Shown: piece by piece, positions 55,605 through 64,000 of the stretch
How positions within the stretch are numbered: position 1 is the stretch's first letter
Layout of the letters: each line of letters begins with the position of its first letter
Assembly (NCBI GenBank): GCA_017380635.1
Contig: JAFODP010000020.1
Span: forward strand, 886 to 64,885
Direction: 5' to 3'
DNA length: 64,000 nucleotides
DNA from: Bacteroidales bacterium
GTDB lineage: Bacteria; Bacteroidota; Bacteroidia; Bacteroidales; UBA1402
The notes under the pieces: generated by a model
Database searches by the model: none
The model's input: only the letters and a program-made list of their open reading frames with translations
What the model was told of the DNA's origin: nothing
Position numbers and translations under genes: made by a program

Positions 55605-56171
55605 ATGACTGACCAACAAATAATAGCGGCATTGGTGGAGCGAGATGAGAAAGTTACTCGGCAATTCTTTTTTAAGGATTGTCGTCCGCTTTTTGCTAGT
55701 ATCATTCGTCATGTGTTTACGTACAAGGTGGATTACGATGAGTTTGTGAATGAATTCTATCTTTATTTGATGGAAAACGAAGCTCATCGTCTGCGTCAAT
55801 TCCAGGGAAGAAGTTCTATCTATCAGTGGATGAAGGTGGTAGCTATTCGTTATTTTGTAGCTAAAAGGGATTCAATGATAGATATGGAACCTCGGGAACC
55901 TCTTTCCAATGAACCTGAAGCATCCTATGATAAATCGGGTGCCATATCAGCTGCTATCGATGTACGACGTTTGCTTGGCATGATGCCGAACAAGCGCCAT
56001 GTGTATGTTTTGCAGCGATTGCTCTTGGACGATGCGGAACCTAAAGAAGTGGCAGAAGAGTTGCAAGTGACAGTAGATAATTTGTATAACATAAAGAAAA
56101 GGGCTATGGCTGCGCTGACACAAATGGTGCTTTTCGAAACTGGGAAATATGAAAAAGAAATCTGTAAATAA
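55605..56171 (+). CDS. sigma-70 family (ECF-like) RNA polymerase sigma factor
   Basis: A region 2-like segment (EFYLYLMENEAHRLRQFQGRSSIYQWMKVVAIRYF) and a region 4 helix-turn-helix (EPKEVAEELQVTVDNLYNIKKRAMAAL). Confidence 0.7.
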   Translation: MTDQQIIAALVERDEKVTRQFFFKDCRPLFASIIRHVFTYKVDYDEFVNEFYLYLMENEAHRLRQFQGRSSIYQWMKVVAIRYFVAKRDSMIDMEPREPLSNEPEASYDKSGAISAAIDVRRLLGMMPNKRHVYVLQRLLLDDAEPKEVAEELQVTVDNLYNIKKRAMAALTQMVLFETGKYEKEICK

Positions 56172-57150
56172 GATCTCGTCGGAGGTATTGGCGGCTTTTC
56201 TCGATGGAAACGCCACTGCACAAGAAAGCCTGGAGATAATGTGCGAAATCTCTGAAGATGCTTCATTGAGAGAGTTGCTGCATATTTCTCAATTGGTAGA
56301 TGCGGAATTGGGTATCATGCCTCAAGTGGATTGTGAGCTTCTTCCCATGACGGCCATGGCTGCTACGTGCAGCGAAGAGAATCTCTGTAGTTTGGAATGC
56401 GAAAAATTTGTGCTAAGAAAGATGGGTATAGATTTCGACGAACAACAACTCTACGCTGAGGCGCTTCGCTGTGGATGGCAAAAAAAAGAAGGCACGGCTT
56501 TATACAATGTGGGACGCCATTTGGAAGCTAAAGGTCTTGTGGTGACTCGCCAATTTAAAGCGAGGATTGACGATATTGCAAATGCGCTCAAGAAAAATGA
56601 GAGCGTAATAGTTGCGCTTGATGGTGGAGAATTGTTGAATGCCGGATTGTCCGAAATCAGAGAAGACCTTATTGTAGGACAGATTCCCGACCATACGGTA
56701 GTTGTTACATCGTACGATGCTACCGCGCAAAAAATATGCGTATTCGATCCCAATTCTCCGGACGCGGAAGATACCTATCCTTTAGCTCAATTTCTGGATG
56801 CGTGGAGCGATTCTAAAAATTATTTGTTGCGTGTTGTTTCACCCGATACATGTGAATATATTCCACATCCTATCGATTTGTCTGATGTGGTTCTCACCGA
56901 AGATTTGATCGAATTGCGTGAAGCTATCGCCGAAAACGCTCACGAAGTTTGGGCGCAGAATCGTTATGCCGAAGGTTGGCGTTATGGTCCTCAAAGAGAT
57001 GACGATAAATTGCTTCATCCAGATATGATGCCCTATTCCCAACTTCCCGAAGGCGAAAAGGACTACGACCGCGAAATGGCTATGAAGACCATAAAACTTT
57101 TGAAGAAGCTCGGGTATGATCTTGTGAAACGTAAAAATAACAAACAATAG
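56149..57150 (+). CDS. anti-sigma-like N-terminus plus papain/C39-like peptidase-like domain plus C-terminal RyR domain
   Basis: LAAFLDGNATAQES is an anti-sigma-style N-terminus. A Cys...His module (CSLECEKFVL ... DHTVVVTSYD) is a tentative call. The C-terminus IAENAHEVWAQNRYAEGWRYGPQRDDDKLLHPDMMPYSQLPEGEKDYDREMAMKTIKLLKKLGY is a strong RyR-domain match. 23-nt overlap with the sigma gene. Confidence 0.6.
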   Translation: MKKKSVNKISSEVLAAFLDGNATAQESLEIMCEISEDASLRELLHISQLVDAELGIMPQVDCELLPMTAMAATCSEENLCSLECEKFVLRKMGIDFDEQQLYAEALRCGWQKKEGTALYNVGRHLEAKGLVVTRQFKARIDDIANALKKNESVIVALDGGELLNAGLSEIREDLIVGQIPDHTVVVTSYDATAQKICVFDPNSPDAEDTYPLAQFLDAWSDSKNYLLRVVSPDTCEYIPHPIDLSDVVLTEDLIELREAIAENAHEVWAQNRYAEGWRYGPQRDDDKLLHPDMMPYSQLPEGEKDYDREMAMKTIKLLKKLGYDLVKRKNNKQ

Positions 57151-57169
57151 ATTTAAGTTGATTCAGAAT

Positions 57170-58051
57170 ATGATTAAACCTTCAGAATTTATTCATCCTG
57201 AGGACGCAGCAGCATTGCGTCAGTTGGAATCTATTCCGGGATTTCCGATGCTGGTGAAGAAAATTATGGCCATCGGACTTGAACAATTGCAGTATGGTAT
57301 GAATATGGCGACGTCTATCAGGTTGTCGCCCACACAATTGCCAAAATTGTACAACCATCTCCCGCCCATTTGTGAAAAACTTGGTATAGAAGAACCGGAA
57401 TTCTATCTTATGATGGATCCCAATCCAAATGCTTTTACTTTTGGTGATACCAAAATATTTATTGCTGTTACATCTGGCTTGGTGGAAATGATGAGCGACG
57501 AAGAATTAGACGCCGTCCTTGCCCACGAATGCGGTCATATCATGTGTCGTCACGTATTGTATCATAGTATAGCGCGATATATTTTGAGCGGTGTAGATGC
57601 TCTTGGTGTTTTGGGCACACTGACTACACCTATTAAATGGGCTGTCTTATATTGGTATCGCAAGAGTGAGCTTTCGTGCGATCGCTGTGCCAGTATAGTT
57701 GCTTCTCCCGAAGTGGTGGCATCCACAATGGCTCGTTTGGCTGGGGGACCGAAGTCGATTACTGCTCACCTTAATATGGAAGAGTGGGCCAAACAAGCCG
57801 ATAAGTACGATGAAATTTACAACGATGGTTTGTGGAACAAGGCTTTACAAATCTATGTAATCATGGAACAATCCCATCCATTCAGCGCTGTGCGTGTACG
57901 CGAAATTCTGAAGTGGGGAAAGAGTGCTCAGTATCAACGTATCATGCAGGCTATGACCAAGGCCTTAGGTAGCAACGAATGTCCTAACTGTCATCGTTCA
58001 GTGTCATCTGATTGGGGATTCTGTAAATACTGTGGTCATAAACTGAAATAA
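57170..58051 (+). CDS. M48-family zinc metallopeptidase with C-terminal zinc ribbon
   Basis: HECGHIMCRH (HExxH) and a C-terminal CPNCHRSVSSDWGFCKYCGHKL. Start set at the ATG 12 nt inside the track ORF. Confidence 0.75.
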   Translation: MIKPSEFIHPEDAAALRQLESIPGFPMLVKKIMAIGLEQLQYGMNMATSIRLSPTQLPKLYNHLPPICEKLGIEEPEFYLMMDPNPNAFTFGDTKIFIAVTSGLVEMMSDEELDAVLAHECGHIMCRHVLYHSIARYILSGVDALGVLGTLTTPIKWAVLYWYRKSELSCDRCASIVASPEVVASTMARLAGGPKSITAHLNMEEWAKQADKYDEIYNDGLWNKALQIYVIMEQSHPFSAVRVREILKWGKSAQYQRIMQAMTKALGSNECPNCHRSVSSDWGFCKYCGHKLK

Positions 58052-58072
58052 TAAGCTATAAACTATTTGAAA

Positions 58073-58330
58073 ATGAAAGATTTATTCGACGAAAATGGAT
58101 TGTTGAACATCGATATTCTGATGGAACAAACTCCGTCATGGAAGTCTATCATAGCAGATGAGTTGGTGACAGATGAGGAGTTGAAGGAGCAATCTGAAAG
58201 AGTGATGCGCTTGGCAGAAAAACTTCAAGCCGCTTGTAATCAGGAGCAAATAGATTTGGTGAAGGCGTTTTTGGCTGAACTTAACGTGCTGAACATGGCT
58301 TATCATTACAATAGTGTAAAACCAATGTAA
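58073..58330 (+). CDS. small hypothetical helical protein
   Basis: An ORF tightly spaced within the cluster, with no recognisable domain. Confidence 0.4.
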   Translation: MKDLFDENGLLNIDILMEQTPSWKSIIADELVTDEELKEQSERVMRLAEKLQAACNQEQIDLVKAFLAELNVLNMAYHYNSVKPM

Positions 58331-58341
58331 AAGACATAGAT

Positions 58342-58869
58342 ATGGGAACTTTTAATACAAGTAAGATACTATATGTATCGCCTGCATATATTCCAGCCAT
58401 GGCCGAACGTTTGTGTAGAGACTTTCAAGCTGATGGGTACGATGTGGCTTCTGATAATTTGATGAGCGGTGGCATTGAGGTTTCCATCTCAAAAGGTGGT
58501 GTATTCAAATTGGCTTTGGGTATGAAAACCGCGCTGAAAATATCGTTGACACCTCGCGAAGAATCGGTCGTATTCGATGCCAGTGTCGGGATTTTTGGTA
58601 AGCAAATTATACCTGCATTATTGGCTTGGTATGTGGCATGGCCCGTGCTCTTGACGCAAGTATGGGGTTTGATAACCCAATCGAAGTTGGACGACAAGGC
58701 ACTTGCTATTGTTATGGATGTGGCTTCGTCTGGCGATATTTCCGTTGATGCCTCTACTTCTCCGATAGAGAAATCCGACACTACGGGTGAATATTGTTTC
58801 TGTACTCACTGTGGCCACAAAAATCTCATGACTGCAGATAAATGCTCCTCCTGTGGAAAAGACTTATAA
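58342..58869 (+). CDS. hypothetical protein with a TM segment and C-terminal zinc ribbon
   Basis: TM segment IIPALLAWYVAWPVLLTQVWGLI and a C-terminal CFCTHCGHKNLMTADKCSSCGKDL. Confidence 0.5.
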   Translation: MGTFNTSKILYVSPAYIPAMAERLCRDFQADGYDVASDNLMSGGIEVSISKGGVFKLALGMKTALKISLTPREESVVFDASVGIFGKQIIPALLAWYVAWPVLLTQVWGLITQSKLDDKALAIVMDVASSGDISVDASTSPIEKSDTTGEYCFCTHCGHKNLMTADKCSSCGKDL

Positions 58870-59017: not shown

Positions 59018-60382
59018 ATGGCCAGTCATAATGAAATAAGCGAGCGTAATTGGGAGTTGTTACTTGAGGCAATCAATAATAAACGGGTTGTCCCTATTAT
59101 TGGTGACGATTTTTTCTATGTTATCGAAAATGAGCAAGAAATCAGTGTTAGAGAATTCTTAATTAAGAAACTTGCTTTAAGATTTAATGTAACAGATTCT
59201 TTTGTTGATTTTTCTTCTATCGCAGATGCGATAGAACTAGAAAATTTTATGAATCATAAAATACGTTTCATCAACTCCCAAACTGATATATATTATGAAA
59301 TCAATCAGATTCTCCAAACTGAAAAAATCTACGTAAGGGAATCATTGCATCAATTAATTGAGCTAAATAAATTTCCACTTATTCTTACAACCTCATTTAT
59401 TCCAGGTCTTGAAACTCTTTTATCTCAAAAGGGGCATGATTGTGTTTCACTATCATATGAGAAAGCTGCAGATTCAGACCTTACTCCTGCTGTAATGTGT
59501 GGAGATAAAACAATAATATACTACTTGTTTGGACGATGTGGAAAAATAAAAAGGTCATATATGGTAACAGAGGAAGATCTTCTTGAATATATACATTTAT
59601 GGCATGATACAGATGCAAGACCCCCTATACTTACAAAGCAATTAGCCAATAAATTTCTAATGGTTTTAGGTTGTAACTATCCAAATTGGTTATTTAAATT
59701 TTTCTGGCATTCTATTAGAAATTTTTCTTTAATTCCTAATTCTAATCATGGTGATAGAATTATGGAAATTATGCAAGCTATTGTTTCTGTCGATCAGGTG
59801 AAGGATGATGTTGACTTAGAAAGATTTCTGTCCAGAATACACACTTCCATATACAAAAGCAGTAATACGTTCATTCAAGAACTCATATGGCACTGGGGTA
59901 ATTATAAATCTAATATAGAAGAGATAAATCCTTTAGAAGAAAAAGAAGTATTCAACTCGAATGACGAATCAATAGATATATTTATTTCGTATGCAAGTGA
60001 AGATTTACCTATCGCCAATAGATTGGCTGATATGCTTAAGAATCTAGGCGCAAAAGTTTGGTTTGATAAACGTGAACTTGTTCTATCAGATAAATATGAA
60101 AGAGAAATTACTTCTGCTATAACAAAAGCCAAACGTTTTATGCCTGTACTTTCTAAAACAACGCTGATAGAGGAGCCTCGCTTTTTTAGAAAGGAGTGGG
60201 CAATCGCGCATCGTGTACTTGAGGACAGATTTGGATTACCATTTTTTGCTCCAATTACAATTGATGAATGTAACCCTAATGATGAACGTATTCCGAAGAC
60301 CTATCGAGATTGCCATATAATATCATTCCAAAGTGAAGACATTGAGTTGAAGTTGAAAAAGTTTATTAGATCAATTCGCTAA
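59018..60382 (+). CDS. SIR2-like (SIR2_2-type, catalytic residues substituted) domain fused to a C-terminal TIR domain
   Basis: Collinear with ThsA-type SIR2: VPIIGDDFF (GAGLS), LILTTSFIPGLE (TTNYD), IIYYLFGRCG..YMVTEEDLLEY (KMHGD...DDYEKY), FLMVLGCNYPNW (FVGFSFTDPN). TIR: IDIFISYASEDLPIANRLADMLKNLGAKVWFD...FFRKEWAIA. Confidence 0.75.
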   Translation: MASHNEISERNWELLLEAINNKRVVPIIGDDFFYVIENEQEISVREFLIKKLALRFNVTDSFVDFSSIADAIELENFMNHKIRFINSQTDIYYEINQILQTEKIYVRESLHQLIELNKFPLILTTSFIPGLETLLSQKGHDCVSLSYEKAADSDLTPAVMCGDKTIIYYLFGRCGKIKRSYMVTEEDLLEYIHLWHDTDARPPILTKQLANKFLMVLGCNYPNWLFKFFWHSIRNFSLIPNSNHGDRIMEIMQAIVSVDQVKDDVDLERFLSRIHTSIYKSSNTFIQELIWHWGNYKSNIEEINPLEEKEVFNSNDESIDIFISYASEDLPIANRLADMLKNLGAKVWFDKRELVLSDKYEREITSAITKAKRFMPVLSKTTLIEEPRFFRKEWAIAHRVLEDRFGLPFFAPITIDECNPNDERIPKTYRDCHIISFQSEDIELKLKKFIRSIR

Positions 60383-60386
60383 AAAG

Positions 60387-63300
60387 ATGCTGTTAAAAGA
60401 GAACAATCCCTGGTTAGGCTTAGAGTCATATTCAATCAATGATGCCTATAGATTTTATGGACGTGACAATGATATTGAGATTGTTAGTAATGCTATCTAT
60501 GATAATTTTATTACTACAATTTACGGTATATCGGGAGCAGGTAAAACATCTCTTCTTAATGCAGGTTTAACTCCTGCTTTAATTGAAAATAATTATCTGC
60601 CTATTAGGATACGCCTCAATCACAGTTCAGATAAGTCGTATAGCATGCAAGTTATTGATGCTATAACCGCTGCCGTAGATTCTGTTAATGGAGAAGTAGA
60701 ATATGATGGTACTATTTCTCTTGAACAGATTTGCGAAAATGAGAAACTTTGTTTTTTTTTGCATACTAGAGGTTTTTGGACAAAAGACAACTATTCCATC
60801 AGACCCGTAATCTTTATTGACCAATTTGAAGAGTTGTTTACACAGAACGATGATACATATAAGATATCTTCTTTCTTTGAAATGATAAATGCCATTCAAT
60901 ATGATACACCCCCTACTCAAACAAAGGAGCTGCTGGAAAACAGTTCGGGATATTTTGAGCTTAAATGCAATACTAGCAGAATAGTCTTTATCATAAGGGA
61001 AGATTTTCTTGCTCGTTTAGAAGATTATTCATACGGTATAGCAGTTTTAAGAAGAAATAGGATTGGTATAAAGCAAATGAATGGTCATCAGGCTTTAGAA
61101 GTTATTCTTAAACCCAGTCAAGGTCTCATTACACGAGAAGGCGCACTGAAGATTCTAAGCAAAGTTTCAGGTAAGGACGTAATTGATTCAGATCGTTCAT
61201 TAGGTAGGATTTCAATAGACACCTCAATTCTTTCGCTTTTTTGCTCTGAATTGTATCAAAGAGCTGTCGAAGAAAAAAGCGATATTATTACCACGAAGAT
61301 TATTGAGGAATTTGGCAGTAATATTATTGCTCACTTTTACTCAAAGAGTATGGCTCCAGTACCTCCTACTTTAGTAACATATTTAGAGAAACATCTATTA
61401 ACATCTAATGGCTATAGAAATTCTATCGCACTTGAAGATGTTGAGATACCCAAACTTACAAAAGAAGCACTTGCAAGTAATCTCACCCACCTCACAGAAA
61501 AACGTATTATAAGAATTGAAGAGACGAATGGAGTTGCACGTGTGGAATTTACTCATGATGTTTTATGCATGGTTGCTAAGCAACATAGAGATAATAAGAA
61601 ACAGAAGCAACTTAAGACGAAAGAACGAGCGGCCTCAATATTGCGATGTTTAGATTTTTCATTTATTCTATTGCTATGCTATATTTTCTTCTCTTCAGGT
61701 TCTGGGTGGTGGGGATATTATACAATTTCTTCACTTTTAAATCCAACCTCTATTGCAATAGGTTTTTTATTTGTATATACATTTTACGATAAATATAATA
61801 AACAAAACTGTCATTGGAAATTAATATCTTCTATATTTCTATCGCTTTTATTGGTTCCGCAAGATGTTTGGTTTAATTTTAATGATAGTGCTCTAAGACC
61901 AATTAATATTGCTACATTGATACTATGCTGTGCTTCAATTGTTATTAGTACATTTTCCTTTAACCCGTCCAAGCGTACGCAAAAAGGATTCTATTATCTT
62001 TTGCTAGCCACAAATTTCATGATGTTATTATTAAAATACCACATCTTTATAATTGGCTTATTAGCATTATTTTCATTCTTAATACTACTTCCATATAGAT
62101 TCACTTGTGAGAAAAAATCACGTATTTTATCAATAATAGCAACGGTATTACTATTGATATTGTATTTGGGATATGGTAGTGACTTAGGTTTATTTATTGC
62201 CATGTATCCACTTACAACCTTCTTCATAAAATTAAAAGATGGAAATTTATCATTAAAATCAGCACTTATATCTTGCCTAAAATTTGAAGTATATAATAAA
62301 AACAAAAGTCTTAGAGTGATACTTCTCATTGTTGGTATACTTTCTACATTTTCATATTGTTGGGCATATGGCAATTCATTAGCAGATAAAGAAATCATAG
62401 GGAGAATAATATCAGTTGTATTGATGTTTATTCTATTATTTAAATTTTGTCGTGAAATATCTACTAGTTTTAGAGAAATAACAGATCGCCATGATTGTTT
62501 GATACATAAAGGGGCATTAGGAATTTTGATTATTTCAACATGTATATTTTTATGCCAATATATACCATATGGAACCATCTTCATTTTATTTATTTGGTTT
62601 ATCATTTTGACTTCACTAATCGTTTTCGGGTCAAAATTAAGGATTGAAAATAAATGTCTATTTACTGCAATCATTATAGTTGTTATATCTTTAATTATTG
62701 CGCCATTGAATAGTATCGGATACAACATTTTCTCAAATATCAAATATGGTAAAACTCCTCAAAATATAATCCATGCCAATAGAGAATTTATCGTCATTAG
62801 AGATTTTCAAGGCAATTATGGTGTACGTGATAGATATAATATCATCGTACCTGTTAATTATTCCGAGATTCTGAGTGTTGAATTTTATAATATAGATGAT
62901 AATATAATAATTAGTAGAGGTTTAAGCTCATATAATTTAAATAACAATGTTAACGACAAATGGTTATATGTTTTTCCAACGTGGGTGCGTAGAATATTTA
63001 TCAATGGGCTTAACATAAGTAGTAAACAAAATGATATTGACAAAACACCCAATATTAGATTTTTATTAAAAAATAAAGACGGGGGTAATATAACATGGGA
63101 ATGCAATCAACATCTAAATATTCCAAATGTATGTACTTCTGTAATTAATCTATCATCGGAATCTTTATTTGTTGAAAATATATCAGGGGCATTAGATTAC
63201 TTCAAATCATTAGCAGAAGTAAAAGAGAATAATCCGATAATAGCAAAAAAAGTTATATTAAATTGTTTTAAGAAATATCTTTCTCAAGAATATCAATTTG

Positions 63301-63710
63301 ATTCTTTGCAAGAACTAGATGAGTTGTTAGAATCACAGAGTACTCTAACTCATAATACTGCAAATAATTTAAGATTGGCAATGAATAGGTCATATCAACT
63401 TTTACCATTTGTTGATGATACATCATTTGTTAAACTAACGTTGGATACATTGTGTCAATACACAAGACCGCAGAGCAATAAGTCATATGATATTTGGGAA
63501 CATTATAATAATATTTCTAGGTATTATTTATATGGAAAAATGTTTGATAAGGCAGAAGAATACGCAATAAAAGCTATTAAAACGGACTCGTTGTTAAAGC
63601 TCCCATATTTAAATATTATCGAGGCACACATAGCTAGAGGGAGGTATAGTGAAGCTGAGTTTTTATTTAACGAGTATAAAGATGATATGTTTTATCAAGG
63701 GAAAATATAG
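60387..63710 (+). CDS. STAND-type P-loop NTPase with an embedded polytopic membrane domain and C-terminal WG-like and TPR-like repeats
   Basis: NPWLGLESY..FYGRDNDIEIV...IYGISGAGKTSLLNAGLTPAL (Walker A) and RPVIFIDQFEELFT (Walker B) fit the STAND signature. About 12-14 hydrophobic helices span roughly aa 415-775. It ends at TAG 63708-63710, but the frame stays open beyond. Confidence 0.75.
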   Translation: MLLKENNPWLGLESYSINDAYRFYGRDNDIEIVSNAIYDNFITTIYGISGAGKTSLLNAGLTPALIENNYLPIRIRLNHSSDKSYSMQVIDAITAAVDSVNGEVEYDGTISLEQICENEKLCFFLHTRGFWTKDNYSIRPVIFIDQFEELFTQNDDTYKISSFFEMINAIQYDTPPTQTKELLENSSGYFELKCNTSRIVFIIREDFLARLEDYSYGIAVLRRNRIGIKQMNGHQALEVILKPSQGLITREGALKILSKVSGKDVIDSDRSLGRISIDTSILSLFCSELYQRAVEEKSDIITTKIIEEFGSNIIAHFYSKSMAPVPPTLVTYLEKHLLTSNGYRNSIALEDVEIPKLTKEALASNLTHLTEKRIIRIEETNGVARVEFTHDVLCMVAKQHRDNKKQKQLKTKERAASILRCLDFSFILLLCYIFFSSGSGWWGYYTISSLLNPTSIAIGFLFVYTFYDKYNKQNCHWKLISSIFLSLLLVPQDVWFNFNDSALRPINIATLILCCASIVISTFSFNPSKRTQKGFYYLLLATNFMMLLLKYHIFIIGLLALFSFLILLPYRFTCEKKSRILSIIATVLLLILYLGYGSDLGLFIAMYPLTTFFIKLKDGNLSLKSALISCLKFEVYNKNKSLRVILLIVGILSTFSYCWAYGNSLADKEIIGRIISVVLMFILLFKFCREISTSFREITDRHDCLIHKGALGILIISTCIFLCQYIPYGTIFILFIWFIILTSLIVFGSKLRIENKCLFTAIIIVVISLIIAPLNSIGYNIFSNIKYGKTPQNIIHANREFIVIRDFQGNYGVRDRYNIIVPVNYSEILSVEFYNIDDNIIISRGLSSYNLNNNVNDKWLYVFPTWVRRIFINGLNISSKQNDIDKTPNIRFLLKNKDGGNITWECNQHLNIPNVCTSVINLSSESLFVENISGALDYFKSLAEVKENNPIIAKKVILNCFKKYLSQEYQFDSLQELDELLESQSTLTHNTANNLRLAMNRSYQLLPFVDDTSFVKLTLDTLCQYTRPQSNKSYDIWEHYNNISRYYLYGKMFDKAEEYAIKAIKTDSLLKLPYLNIIEAHIARGRYSEAEFLFNEYKDDMFYQGKI

Positions 63711-64000
63711 AATGCAATTACAGAAGATGAGGAAAGAATTATATATGAGAACAACGATAGTGTTTCAATTCTATTAAGATACAATAGTCTTACAAATTCC
63801 TTAACTAGAGACATACCCATATTTGAGTCTTGCGGTTTGATAAATACGATTAATGCACCAGAATACATGGAACTCAAAAGAAAACTTTTACATAGGAAAT
63901 GTGCCATATATGATTCTGCAGAAGACAGAGGAGAGTATTATTTATGCAGGAAGTATGAAACATATATTGACGCAGAAGGAGAATTTTATAGAAATGCATA
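63711..64000 (+). other. in-frame open continuation of the 60387 ORF past its TAG stop (runs off the window)
   Basis: 96 consecutive sense codons in the same frame (NAITEDEERIIYENNDSVSILLRYNSL...GEYYLCRKYETYIDAEGEFYRNA). The first ATG in this frame is at 63867. Confidence 0.5.

What the first reader, a model, noticed from the sequence alone, without database searches (positions are those of the whole stretch)
61629..62712. A ~360-aa polytopic membrane block inserted inside a STAND NTPase
Residues ~415-775 of the 1107-aa protein are almost uninterrupted hydrophobic helices (for example FSFILLLCYIFFSSG, IAIGFLFVYTFY, IFIIGLLALFSFLILLPY, GILIISTCIFLCQYIPYGTIFILFIWFIILTSLIVFG). STAND and NACHT-like defence NTPases are normally soluble. 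A membrane-integral STAND would couple NTP-dependent switching directly to a membrane effector or sensor. The antisense 249-aa ORF at 61994-62743 is most simply explained by the extreme AT richness here.
Basis: seen in the sequence. Interest (0 to 1): 0.55.

Follow-up and report, generated by a model that had tools for sequence, protein, structure and literature searches.

The report
Membrane-spanning NLR-like ATPase, 13 helices
The hydrophobic block is real: an NLR-like (STAND) switch ATPase crosses the membrane 13 times, probably placing its sensor outside the cytoplasm, and is paired with a TIR enzyme gene; in this genome one premature stop codon cuts the gene short.

Summary
Residues 421-777 of the ORF at 60387-63710 form 13 transmembrane helices (AlphaFold2 with 72 sequences, pLDDT 86.9, pTM 0.85). 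The block is not inside the NTPase. It lies between an intact nSTAND1 NTPase module (residues 1-405) and a WG-repeat/TPR region.

All 120 closest NTPase homologues carry such a block, mostly 13 or 9 helices. More distant relatives (28-38% identity) have one helix at the same place. Charge bias puts the NTPase inside and the C-terminal region outside (72/72 polytopic, 35/35 single-helix). One relative carries a penicillin-binding transpeptidase domain there.

A SIR2-like/TIR gene (59018-60382) lies 4 nt upstream. Full-length homologues precede the STAND gene in about 45 metagenome loci.

The block matches no solved fold and no other protein family.

The 1107-aa ORF is not the whole gene. A single TAG (63708-63710; Tyr in all 12 close homologues, TAT in L005) interrupts a gene of about 1,480 codons that runs off the contig.

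This scan has already found the single-helix form of the module in at least 21 other genomes. The polytopic form is the new part. The function, immune-type sensing outside the cytoplasm, is inferred, not shown.

The parts
59018..60382 (+). Partner gene, 454 aa: an N-terminal SIR2-like domain lacking the canonical Asn/His, plus a C-terminal TIR domain with a conserved Glu393.
   Evidence: Pfam TIR_2 E 1.3e-18 and SIR2_2 E 1e-4. The TIR aligns to the AbTIR NADase chains. E393 is kept in 42/45 homologues; the motifs TTSF and YYLFG replace TTNYD and xLHG. Full-length homologues lie directly upstream of the STAND gene in about 45 loci.
60387..61601 (+). Cytoplasmic NOD module of the STAND gene (residues 1-405): P-loop NTPase with Walker A GISGAGKTS and Walker B VIFIDQFEE, followed by helical and winged-helix parts.
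   Evidence: Pfam nSTAND1 101 bits against a cut-off of 27.1. It is 94-97% identical to close homologues and 28-38% to single-helix relatives. dN/dS is 0.12. Foldseek gives ORC/Cdc6-like matches.
61647..62717 (+). 13-helix transmembrane domain (residues 421-777); this is the finding's block.
   Evidence: AF2 pLDDT 86.9, pTM 0.85. K+R count is 18 in the inside loops and 3 in the outside loops. There is no fold match. Sequence relatives occur only within this STAND family. dN/dS is 0.44.
62718..62915 (+). Conserved juxtamembrane unit just after helix 13 (residues 778-843): the GYN motif and a WG-like beta hairpin (GNYGVRDR..IIVPVxY).
   Evidence: G778, G809, G812 and D815 are invariant and Y779 is 97% conserved over 72 sequences. 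AF2 gives beta strands at residues 801-825.
63051..63707 (+). Beta/alpha unit with a conserved W-x-C-x-x-H...N-x-C-T motif, then TPR-like helical repeats (residues 889-1107).
   Evidence: W904, C906, H909, N914 and C916 are invariant in A3. AF2 gives helices 915-1100 at pLDDT 80-90, and Foldseek gives TPR hits such as MamA.
63708..63710 (+). Premature in-frame TAG.
   Evidence: This position is Tyr in all 12 close homologues and Y or W in distant ones. L005 has TAT here. No tRNA with anticodon CUA is found in the genome.
63711..64000 (+). Continuation of the same reading frame. It holds WG_beta_rep repeats further on and runs 408 codons to the contig end at window-equivalent 64934.
   Evidence: tblastn of P0003 reads through in one frame. 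Pfam WG_beta_rep E 2.6e-14 on L001:2338-3435. dN/dS is 0.29.
61994..62743 (-). Antisense 249-aa ORF; not a gene.
   Evidence: It is broken into 127-aa and 48-aa ORFs in L005, which is 90% identical in DNA.

Best explanation
The block is the transmembrane domain of a membrane-spanning nSTAND1-type STAND (NLR-like) NTPase. The NOD module (residues 1-405) is cytoplasmic. Thirteen helices (421-777) cross the membrane. The C-terminal region lies outside the cytoplasm and consists of a WG-like beta unit, a Cys/His motif, TPR-like repeats and, past the TAG, WG beta repeats. The gene is co-transcribed with a SIR2-like/TIR gene 4 nt upstream. The pair belongs to a widespread two-gene module in which most members have one transmembrane helix; a Bacteroidales-centred clade expanded this to 9-13 helices. 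Inferred mechanism: a ligand at the envelope, such as a phage or other invader component or cell-wall damage, is bound by the outer repeats and the conserved outer face of the helix bundle. The signal passes through the bundle to the NOD, which exchanges nucleotide and oligomerises in the membrane plane. This activates the partner's TIR domain to cleave NAD+, either depleting it or making a signal. The SIR2-like half, which lacks the catalytic residues, acts as adaptor. In this genome a TAT-to-TAG change at codon 1108 removes the distal 370 or more residues of the sensor, so this copy is probably disabled or altered. What is shown: architecture, helix count, family conservation, gene pairing and the stop codon. 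What is predicted: topology. What is inferred: sensing, signalling and immune role.
For: Domains are. The 13 helices are. On topology, K+R is 18 inside against 3 outside, with inside greater than outside in 72/72 family members. My own dynamic-programming predictor gives C-out in 118/123 homologues, with helix counts of 13 (91), 9 (23) and 11 (4). Single-helix relatives have 6.4 K+R on the N-terminal flank against 2.1 on the C-terminal flank, N greater than C in 35/35. A tandem module in L029 has NOD, one helix and a PBP transpeptidase domain (PF00905, E 2e-6), a domain type that works outside the cytoplasm. The conserved residues of the block (P453, D667, Q724, Y725, P773, G778, Y779, N780) lie on the predicted outer face beside the invariant beta unit. 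On pairing, homologues of P0002 at 23-69% identity lie -4 to +31 nt upstream in nearly all loci with upstream DNA. On island context, the module is 27-35% GC in a 45.9% GC genome. It is a 90%-identical cassette in L005 whose flanks are only 65-69% identical, and L005 has two extra TIR genes inserted there. The polytopic forms fall in one group on the NOD tree (SH-like support 98). The stop codon is covered, and the exact 1107-aa form is on 2 contigs, one of 371 kb.
Against: No experiment exists for any member. The topology rests on predictions and a home-made predictor. TPR and WD40 sensors of known STANDs are cytoplasmic. No known defence model (PADLOC) matches the STAND beyond weak P-loop hits. 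The immediate neighbours in the window (peptidase C39+RyR, M48 protease, zinc-ribbon proteins) suggest envelope signalling rather than classical defence. The block evolves fast (27-34% identity where the NOD is 68-80%; dN/dS 0.44), which would also fit a mere anchor. This copy is truncated, so nothing can be said about its activity in this host.
Confidence: 0.6

Rival explanations
1. The polytopic block is itself the sensor. It would report events within the membrane, such as phage DNA injection, depolarisation, or lipid or cell-wall precursor changes. The outer repeats would be accessory.
For: The helix number grew from 1 to 9-13 in one clade. This is hard to explain for a simple anchor. The bundle folds with high confidence and keeps conserved outer-face residues. 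It is the fastest-evolving part between close strains (dN/dS 0.44), as sensors often are.
Against: No conserved polar or charged residues lie within the helices. The large, variable C-terminal repeat region is kept in nearly all members. Single-helix relatives work without such a bundle.
Confidence: 0.2
2. The block is a membrane effector, a pore or channel opened by the NTPase switch, and the C-terminal repeats sense inside the cytoplasm. This requires an even number of crossings.
For: Transmembrane effectors are common in defence systems (established knowledge; SLATT pores in PMC7159879).
Against: Odd helix counts dominate in homologues (13, 9 and 11), and more distant relatives have a single helix. 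Positive-inside bias holds in 72/72 and 35/35. A dedicated TIR effector gene is always present. There are no conserved pore-lining polar residues. There is no fold match to channels or transporters.
Confidence: 0.07
3. It is not an immune system. It would be an envelope signalling receptor of housekeeping type, for example one that senses cell-wall or surface state and works with the neighbouring sigma/anti-sigma-like, RyR and protease genes.
For: The upstream cluster (C39 peptidase+RyR, M48+zinc ribbon, zinc-ribbon membrane protein) is also upstream in L005 at 65-69% identity. RyR-domain neighbours recur (L033). One relative carries a PBP-type domain.
Against: The distribution is patchy: absent from 60 relatives searched, and 13 of 400 other genomes sampled from the order (14 of 401 with G000) have even a distant relative. 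The composition is low-GC and foreign. The island holds variable TIR genes. The C-termini vary strongly between strains. The gene is lost through a nonsense codon here.
Confidence: 0.13

Closest known systems
nSTAND1 clade of STAND NTPases in prokaryotic conflict systems (Pfam PF20703; named in Kaur, Iyer, Burroughs and Aravind, eLife 2021, PMC8195603)
   Same: The NTPase module scores 101 bits against the family model. It has C-terminal repeat sensors (TPR, WG; WD40 and FGE in relatives) and is associated with TIR-type effectors.
   Different: In the described text the effectors are fused or linked through adaptor domains, and no polytopic membrane domain is mentioned. Here a 13-helix bundle separates the NOD from the sensor, and the effector is a separate SIR2-like/TIR protein.
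The unnamed SIR2-like/TIR + single-helix membrane nSTAND1 two-gene module
   Same: It has the same partner protein (full-length homology), the same gene order and spacing, the same position of the membrane segment after the NOD, and the same predicted N-in/C-out topology.
   Different: There are 13 helices (9 in some members) instead of one. The bundle is a folded domain with its own conserved outer-face residues. The polytopic forms make one group on the NOD tree.
Avs/AVAST and bNACHT bacterial NLR-like defence proteins (for example SIR2-STAND EfAvs5, PMC11897194)
   Same: The logic of a STAND switch plus a repeat sensor plus an NAD-targeting effector.
   Different: Those proteins are soluble, sense phage proteins in the cytoplasm and carry the effector on the same chain. 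PADLOC finds no Avs model here.
'Transmembrane STAND ATPases' fused to Pepco-associated proteases (bioRxiv 10.1101/2025.11.14.688446)
   Same: A published mention that STAND ATPases with transmembrane segments exist in defence contexts.
   Different: It is mentioned in one sentence only, in Actinobacteria and cyanobacteria, with protease and Pepco effectors. No topology and no polytopic domain are described.
KAP family P-loop NTPases (Aravind et al. 2004, PMC416466; cited in PMC8195603)
   Same: A signalling-type P-loop NTPase combined with transmembrane helices.
   Different: In KAP the helices are inserted within the NTPase domain. Here the NOD is uninterrupted (residues 1-405) and the helices follow it. 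There is no KAP Pfam hit.
Toll-like receptors (functional analogy only)
   Same: An outward-facing repeat sensor, membrane crossing, and a cytoplasmic TIR output.
   Different: TLRs have one helix, no NTPase switch, and the TIR on the same chain. There is no homology outside the TIR fold.

Membership tests
nSTAND1 (PF20703) STAND NTPase | A match to the family model above the curated cut-off | tested here: met
   101.3 bits against a cut-off of 27.1, residues 8-245. The same holds for homologues.
nSTAND1 (PF20703) STAND NTPase | Intact Walker A and Walker B motifs | tested here: met
   GISGAGKTS (residues 47-55) and VIFIDQFEE (141-149) are read. They are invariant in A3 and A4.
nSTAND1 (PF20703) STAND NTPase | C-terminal repeat region serving as sensor | tested here: met
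   TPR-like helices at residues 915-1100. WG_beta_rep after the TAG and in homologues.
SIR2-like/TIR + membrane nSTAND1 two-gene module (unnamed) | A full-length SIR2-like/TIR partner directly upstream on the same strand | tested here: met
   P0002 lies at 59018-60382 with a 4-nt gap. Homologues lie upstream in about 45 loci.
SIR2-like/TIR + membrane nSTAND1 two-gene module (unnamed) | Membrane segment immediately after the NOD, with N-in/C-out topology | tested here: met
   13 helices start at residue 421. Positive-inside bias holds in 72/72. This is a prediction only, with no experiment.
Avs/AVAST | A match to Avs models and an effector fused to the STAND chain | tested here: not met
   PADLOC gives only weak PbeC/mad3 P-loop hits (E of 7e-4 or weaker). 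The STAND chain has no N-terminal effector domain, since the NOD starts at residue 8.
Thoeris | A ThsB-type TIR together with a separate ThsA-type effector that has a signal-binding (SLOG/Macro) domain | tested here: not met
   ThsB models match only the TIR part, at E 2.5e-7 or weaker. No SLOG or Macro domain was found. The SIR2-like and TIR domains are on one chain.
KAP NTPase | Transmembrane helices inserted within the P-loop domain | tested here: not met
   There are no hydrophobic segments at residues 1-414. There is no KAP family hit.
Known polytopic folds (GT-C glycosyltransferases, transporters, channels, 7TM receptors) | Structural match of the helix bundle to a solved member | tested here: inconclusive
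   The best Foldseek hit has E 0.15 and TM-score of 0.19 or less. The best VIA-align hit has Z 9.7 over about 95 residues of generic four-helix packing.

The most novel reading that the evidence does not exclude
A clade of bacterial NLR-like receptors looks outward. A folded 13-helix bundle of a fold not yet seen in solved structures carries ligand binding at the envelope, by periplasmic WG/TPR repeats and the bundle's conserved outer face, across the membrane to a cytoplasmic NOD. The NOD's oligomerisation switches on a separate TIR NADase. This would be a TLR-like input joined to an NLR-like switch in one prokaryotic system.
Probability: 0.4. Interest if true: 0.8.

Novelty: new variant of a known kind. 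Interest (0 to 1): 0.58.

Why it matters
Characterised STAND/NLR-type immune proteins of bacteria, plants and animals sense ligands in the cytoplasm. A clade whose sensor is predicted to lie outside the cytoplasm would extend this receptor class to surveillance of the envelope, before or during entry of an invader. It would also raise the question of how a signal crosses the membrane to an oligomerising ATPase. The polytopic form has a confidently predicted 13-helix domain with no structural relative, which makes it a defined object for structural work. The natural series of 1, 9 and 13 helices offers built-in comparisons. For this genome the practical message is annotation: the 1107-aa ORF is a nonsense-truncated copy of a gene of about 1,480 codons.

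Tried and rejected
- The ESM Atlas gave no usable hit for the block.
- Megablast of the module against plasmids and phages found nothing.
- A PDB sequence search with P0001 found nothing.
- HMMER with the block alone over 1.84 billion representatives found only 4 full-length family members and one fragment. The block is therefore too divergent to trace by sequence. The wider polytopic clade was found through the NTPase domain instead.
- Foldseek and VIA-align gave no specific fold match. I had considered a GT-C-type 13-helix glycosyltransferase. There is no fold hit and no conserved acidic motif in the first outer loop.
- TAG recoding or suppression is rejected. No tRNA-CUA is found among the 39 tRNAs, the window's other ORFs have normal lengths under table 11, and homologues have Tyr at the site.
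- An assembly fusion of two genes is rejected, because the architecture occurs in more than 120 protein clusters.
- The antisense ORF is rejected as a gene.
- My first TopPred-like pass missed helix 5 and picked up the P-loop. It was replaced by a dynamic-programming model and by the AF2 helix boundaries.
- Literature searches for 'SIR2-TIR' and 'TIR-SIR2' returned no paper. The supplements of two STAND surveys held nothing on membrane nSTAND1.

Full report
**The observation**

The ORF 60387..63710 (+) encodes 1107 residues. Pfam places an nSTAND1 NTPase at residues 8-245 (101 bits, cut-off 27.1). A Kyte-Doolittle scan shows almost continuous hydrophobic segments from residue 415 to 779.

AlphaFold2 on the whole ORF with 22 homologues gave a moderate model (pLDDT 65.7). 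A second run used residues 370-840 and a 72-sequence alignment anchored on the conserved flanks. It gave pLDDT 86.9 and pTM 0.85.

Both models show the same 13 membrane-length helices: 421-436, 453-467, 472-488, 505-524, 532-550, 552-573, 577-596, 599-613, 640-664, 667-691, 705-723, 729-750 and 755-777. There are short loop helices at 623-638 and 693-701.

**Position of the block in the protein**

Homology to other nSTAND1 proteins runs without interruption from residue 4 to about residue 402. The block therefore follows a complete NOD module. It is not an insertion inside the NTPase.

After helix 13 comes the most conserved stretch outside the NOD. This is a GYN motif and a WG-like beta hairpin (G778, G809, G812 and D815 invariant, Y779 97% conserved). 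Next comes a W-x-C-x-x-H...N-x-C-T motif, followed by TPR-like helices at residues 915-1100.

**The ORF is truncated**

Homologues found with the block are 1344-1485 aa long and carry WG_beta_rep repeats. A tblastn search with the closest one (P0003) against the window plus the rest of the contig reads in one frame straight through the TAG at 63708-63710.

All 12 close homologues have Tyr at that position, and distant ones have Tyr or Trp. The 90%-identical locus L005 has TAT there.

The frame stays open for 408 more codons, until the contig ends at window-equivalent 64934. No tRNA with anticodon CUA is found among the genome's 39 tRNAs.

The exact 1107-aa form occurs on two contigs in public data, one of 371 kb. 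The stop is therefore seen in more than one assembly, though perhaps from the same reads. dN/dS against L005 is 0.29 downstream of the stop, no higher than elsewhere in the gene. This fits a recent nonsense mutation, or an error, in a gene of about 1,480 codons.

**How widespread the block is**

- HMMER with the block alone over 1.84 billion representatives found only four full-length proteins and one fragment. The full-length proteins all have the same architecture.
- The block is not found in 60 related genomes.
- A search with the NOD (residues 1-405) returned 413 clusters at E of 1e-10 or better. All 120 best clusters (46-97% identity) carry a polytopic block that starts at residue 415-425.
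- My own dynamic-programming topology model, with the N-terminus fixed inside, gives 13 helices in 91 homologues, 9 in 23, 11 in 4, 8 in 3 and 14 in 2. It prefers C-out in 118 of 123.
- More distant relatives (28-38% identity over the NOD) have one strongly hydrophobic segment at the same place. This holds in Prevotella-type MAGs, in 13 of 400 other genomes sampled from the order, and in metagenomes from soil, sediment and gut.
- On a FastTree tree of 100 NOD sequences, 52 polytopic proteins form one group (SH-like support 98), next to a single-helix group. The 9-helix and 13-helix forms are intermixed within it.

**Topology**

Using the AF2 helix boundaries, the window's protein has 18 K+R in the loops predicted inside and 3 in those predicted outside. 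Across the 72 aligned members the means are 19.7 and 4.3, with inside greater than outside in 72/72.

In 35 distinct single-helix relatives the N-terminal flank holds 6.4 K+R and the C-terminal flank 2.1, with N greater than C in 35/35.

In L029 a second, tandem module encodes a 783-aa nSTAND1. It has one helix (residues 422-440) and a C-terminal penicillin-binding transpeptidase domain (PF00905, E 2e-6). By established knowledge that domain type acts outside the cytoplasm.

Together with the odd helix counts (1, 9, 13), this supports a cytoplasmic NOD and an extracytoplasmic C-terminal region. It remains a prediction.

**Nature of the block**

Foldseek against the PDB gives nothing better than E 0.15 and a TM-score of 0.19. 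VIA-align against 48,161 chains gives at best Z 9.7, on about 95 residues of generic four-helix packing. The Atlas gives nothing.

Weighted conservation over the 72 sequences is low within the helices (0.27-0.37). The positions that are conserved are P453, D667, Q724, Y725, P773 and G778-Y779-N780, all on the predicted outer face. Inside, only P569 is conserved. No charged residue is conserved within a helix.

Between the window and L005, dN/dS is 0.12 for the NOD, 0.44 for the block and 0.26 for the post-membrane region. I read the block as a folded transducer or anchor with a functional outer face. I do not read it as a transporter, enzyme or pore.

**The partner gene and the island**

The gene at 59018-60382 ends 4 nt before the STAND start. 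It encodes a SIR2-like domain plus a TIR domain. The TIR aligns to AbTIR-type NADases, and its Glu393 is kept in 42/45 homologues.

The SIR2-like half reads TTSF and YYLFG where canonical SIR2 has TTNYD and xLHG. In the wider family 27/45 have His at position 169 and 26/45 have Asp at position 128. This subgroup has lost both.

Full-length homologues of the partner (23-69% identity) lie -4 to +31 nt upstream of the STAND gene in nearly all loci that include upstream DNA.

The module is 27-35% GC in a 45.9% GC genome. It is shared with L005, a Bacteroidaceae MAG, as a 90%-identical cassette that starts 135 nt upstream of the partner gene. The flank is only 65-69% identical, and in L005 it holds two more TIR genes.

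**Literature and earlier notes**

- nSTAND1 is named in PMC8195603.
- 'Transmembrane STAND ATPases' are mentioned once, in 10.1101/2025.11.14.688446.
- A DGR study predicts a periplasmic lectin domain in a NACHT target.
- KAP NTPases have helices inside the NTPase domain (cited).
- I found no description of a polytopic domain in a STAND, nor of the SIR2-like/TIR pairing.
- This scan has already reported the single-helix form of the module in at least 21 other genomes. I reached the same reading independently, before that look-up.

**Verdict**

It is a new polytopic variant of a membrane-spanning nSTAND1/TIR module that appears unpublished but has been found repeatedly by this scan. The copy in this genome is cut by a premature stop codon. 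Function as an outward-looking immune-type receptor is the best-supported inference, with confidence about 0.6, and is untested.

Noticed in passing
window 55605-58869: Upstream there are five co-directional genes. They include a peptidase C39-like + RyR protein (56149-57150), an M48 protease + zinc ribbon (57158-58051) and a zinc-ribbon protein (58342-58869). The same cluster lies upstream in L005 at 65-69% DNA identity. A TrkA_N + RyR protein sits upstream of the module in L033. RyR-domain neighbours may therefore be a recurrent companion.
   Followed up: partly
L005 4217-5371 and 5748-7691: In the Bacteroidaceae MAG, the spot between that cluster and the module holds two extra TIR genes. 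One is TIR + zinc ribbon. The other is TIR + one transmembrane segment + a weak PDZ match (PDZ_6, 19.1 bits, below the 27-bit cut-off), possibly another cytoplasmic TIR with an outward-facing domain.
   Followed up: partly
L029 869-4570 (also L030): A second, tandem module lies directly upstream of a polytopic one. It consists of a 448-aa TIR protein and a 783-aa nSTAND1 with one helix and a penicillin-binding transpeptidase-type C-terminal domain (PF00905, E 2e-6). A 176-aa TIR-only gene follows the polytopic STAND gene.
   Followed up: partly
L001 3121-3435 (window-equivalent 64620-64934): Past residue 1416 of P0003 the window's frame no longer aligns with the homologue. It shows a different repeat (YFDE.GK....DGYAK) and is still open at the contig end (1516 codons). 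The C-terminal tip seems to differ between strains.
   Followed up: no
proteins P0098, P0099, P0101, P0102, P0104: Proteins whose NOD modules are nearly identical (tree distances 0.003-0.04) are predicted to have 9, 11 or 13 helices. The number of helices may change quickly, or my predictor may miscount in this subgroup.
   Followed up: no
L073 2007-5303 and L094 3129-8168: Two relatives within the same NOD clade have a SIR2-like/TIR partner upstream but no hydrophobic segment after the NOD. They are possible soluble revertants.
   Followed up: no
window 63711-63716: The two codons after the TAG also differ from L005 (AAT GCA against AGA GAA). The stop therefore sits in a small patch of several base changes and is not a lone substitution.
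   Followed up: partly
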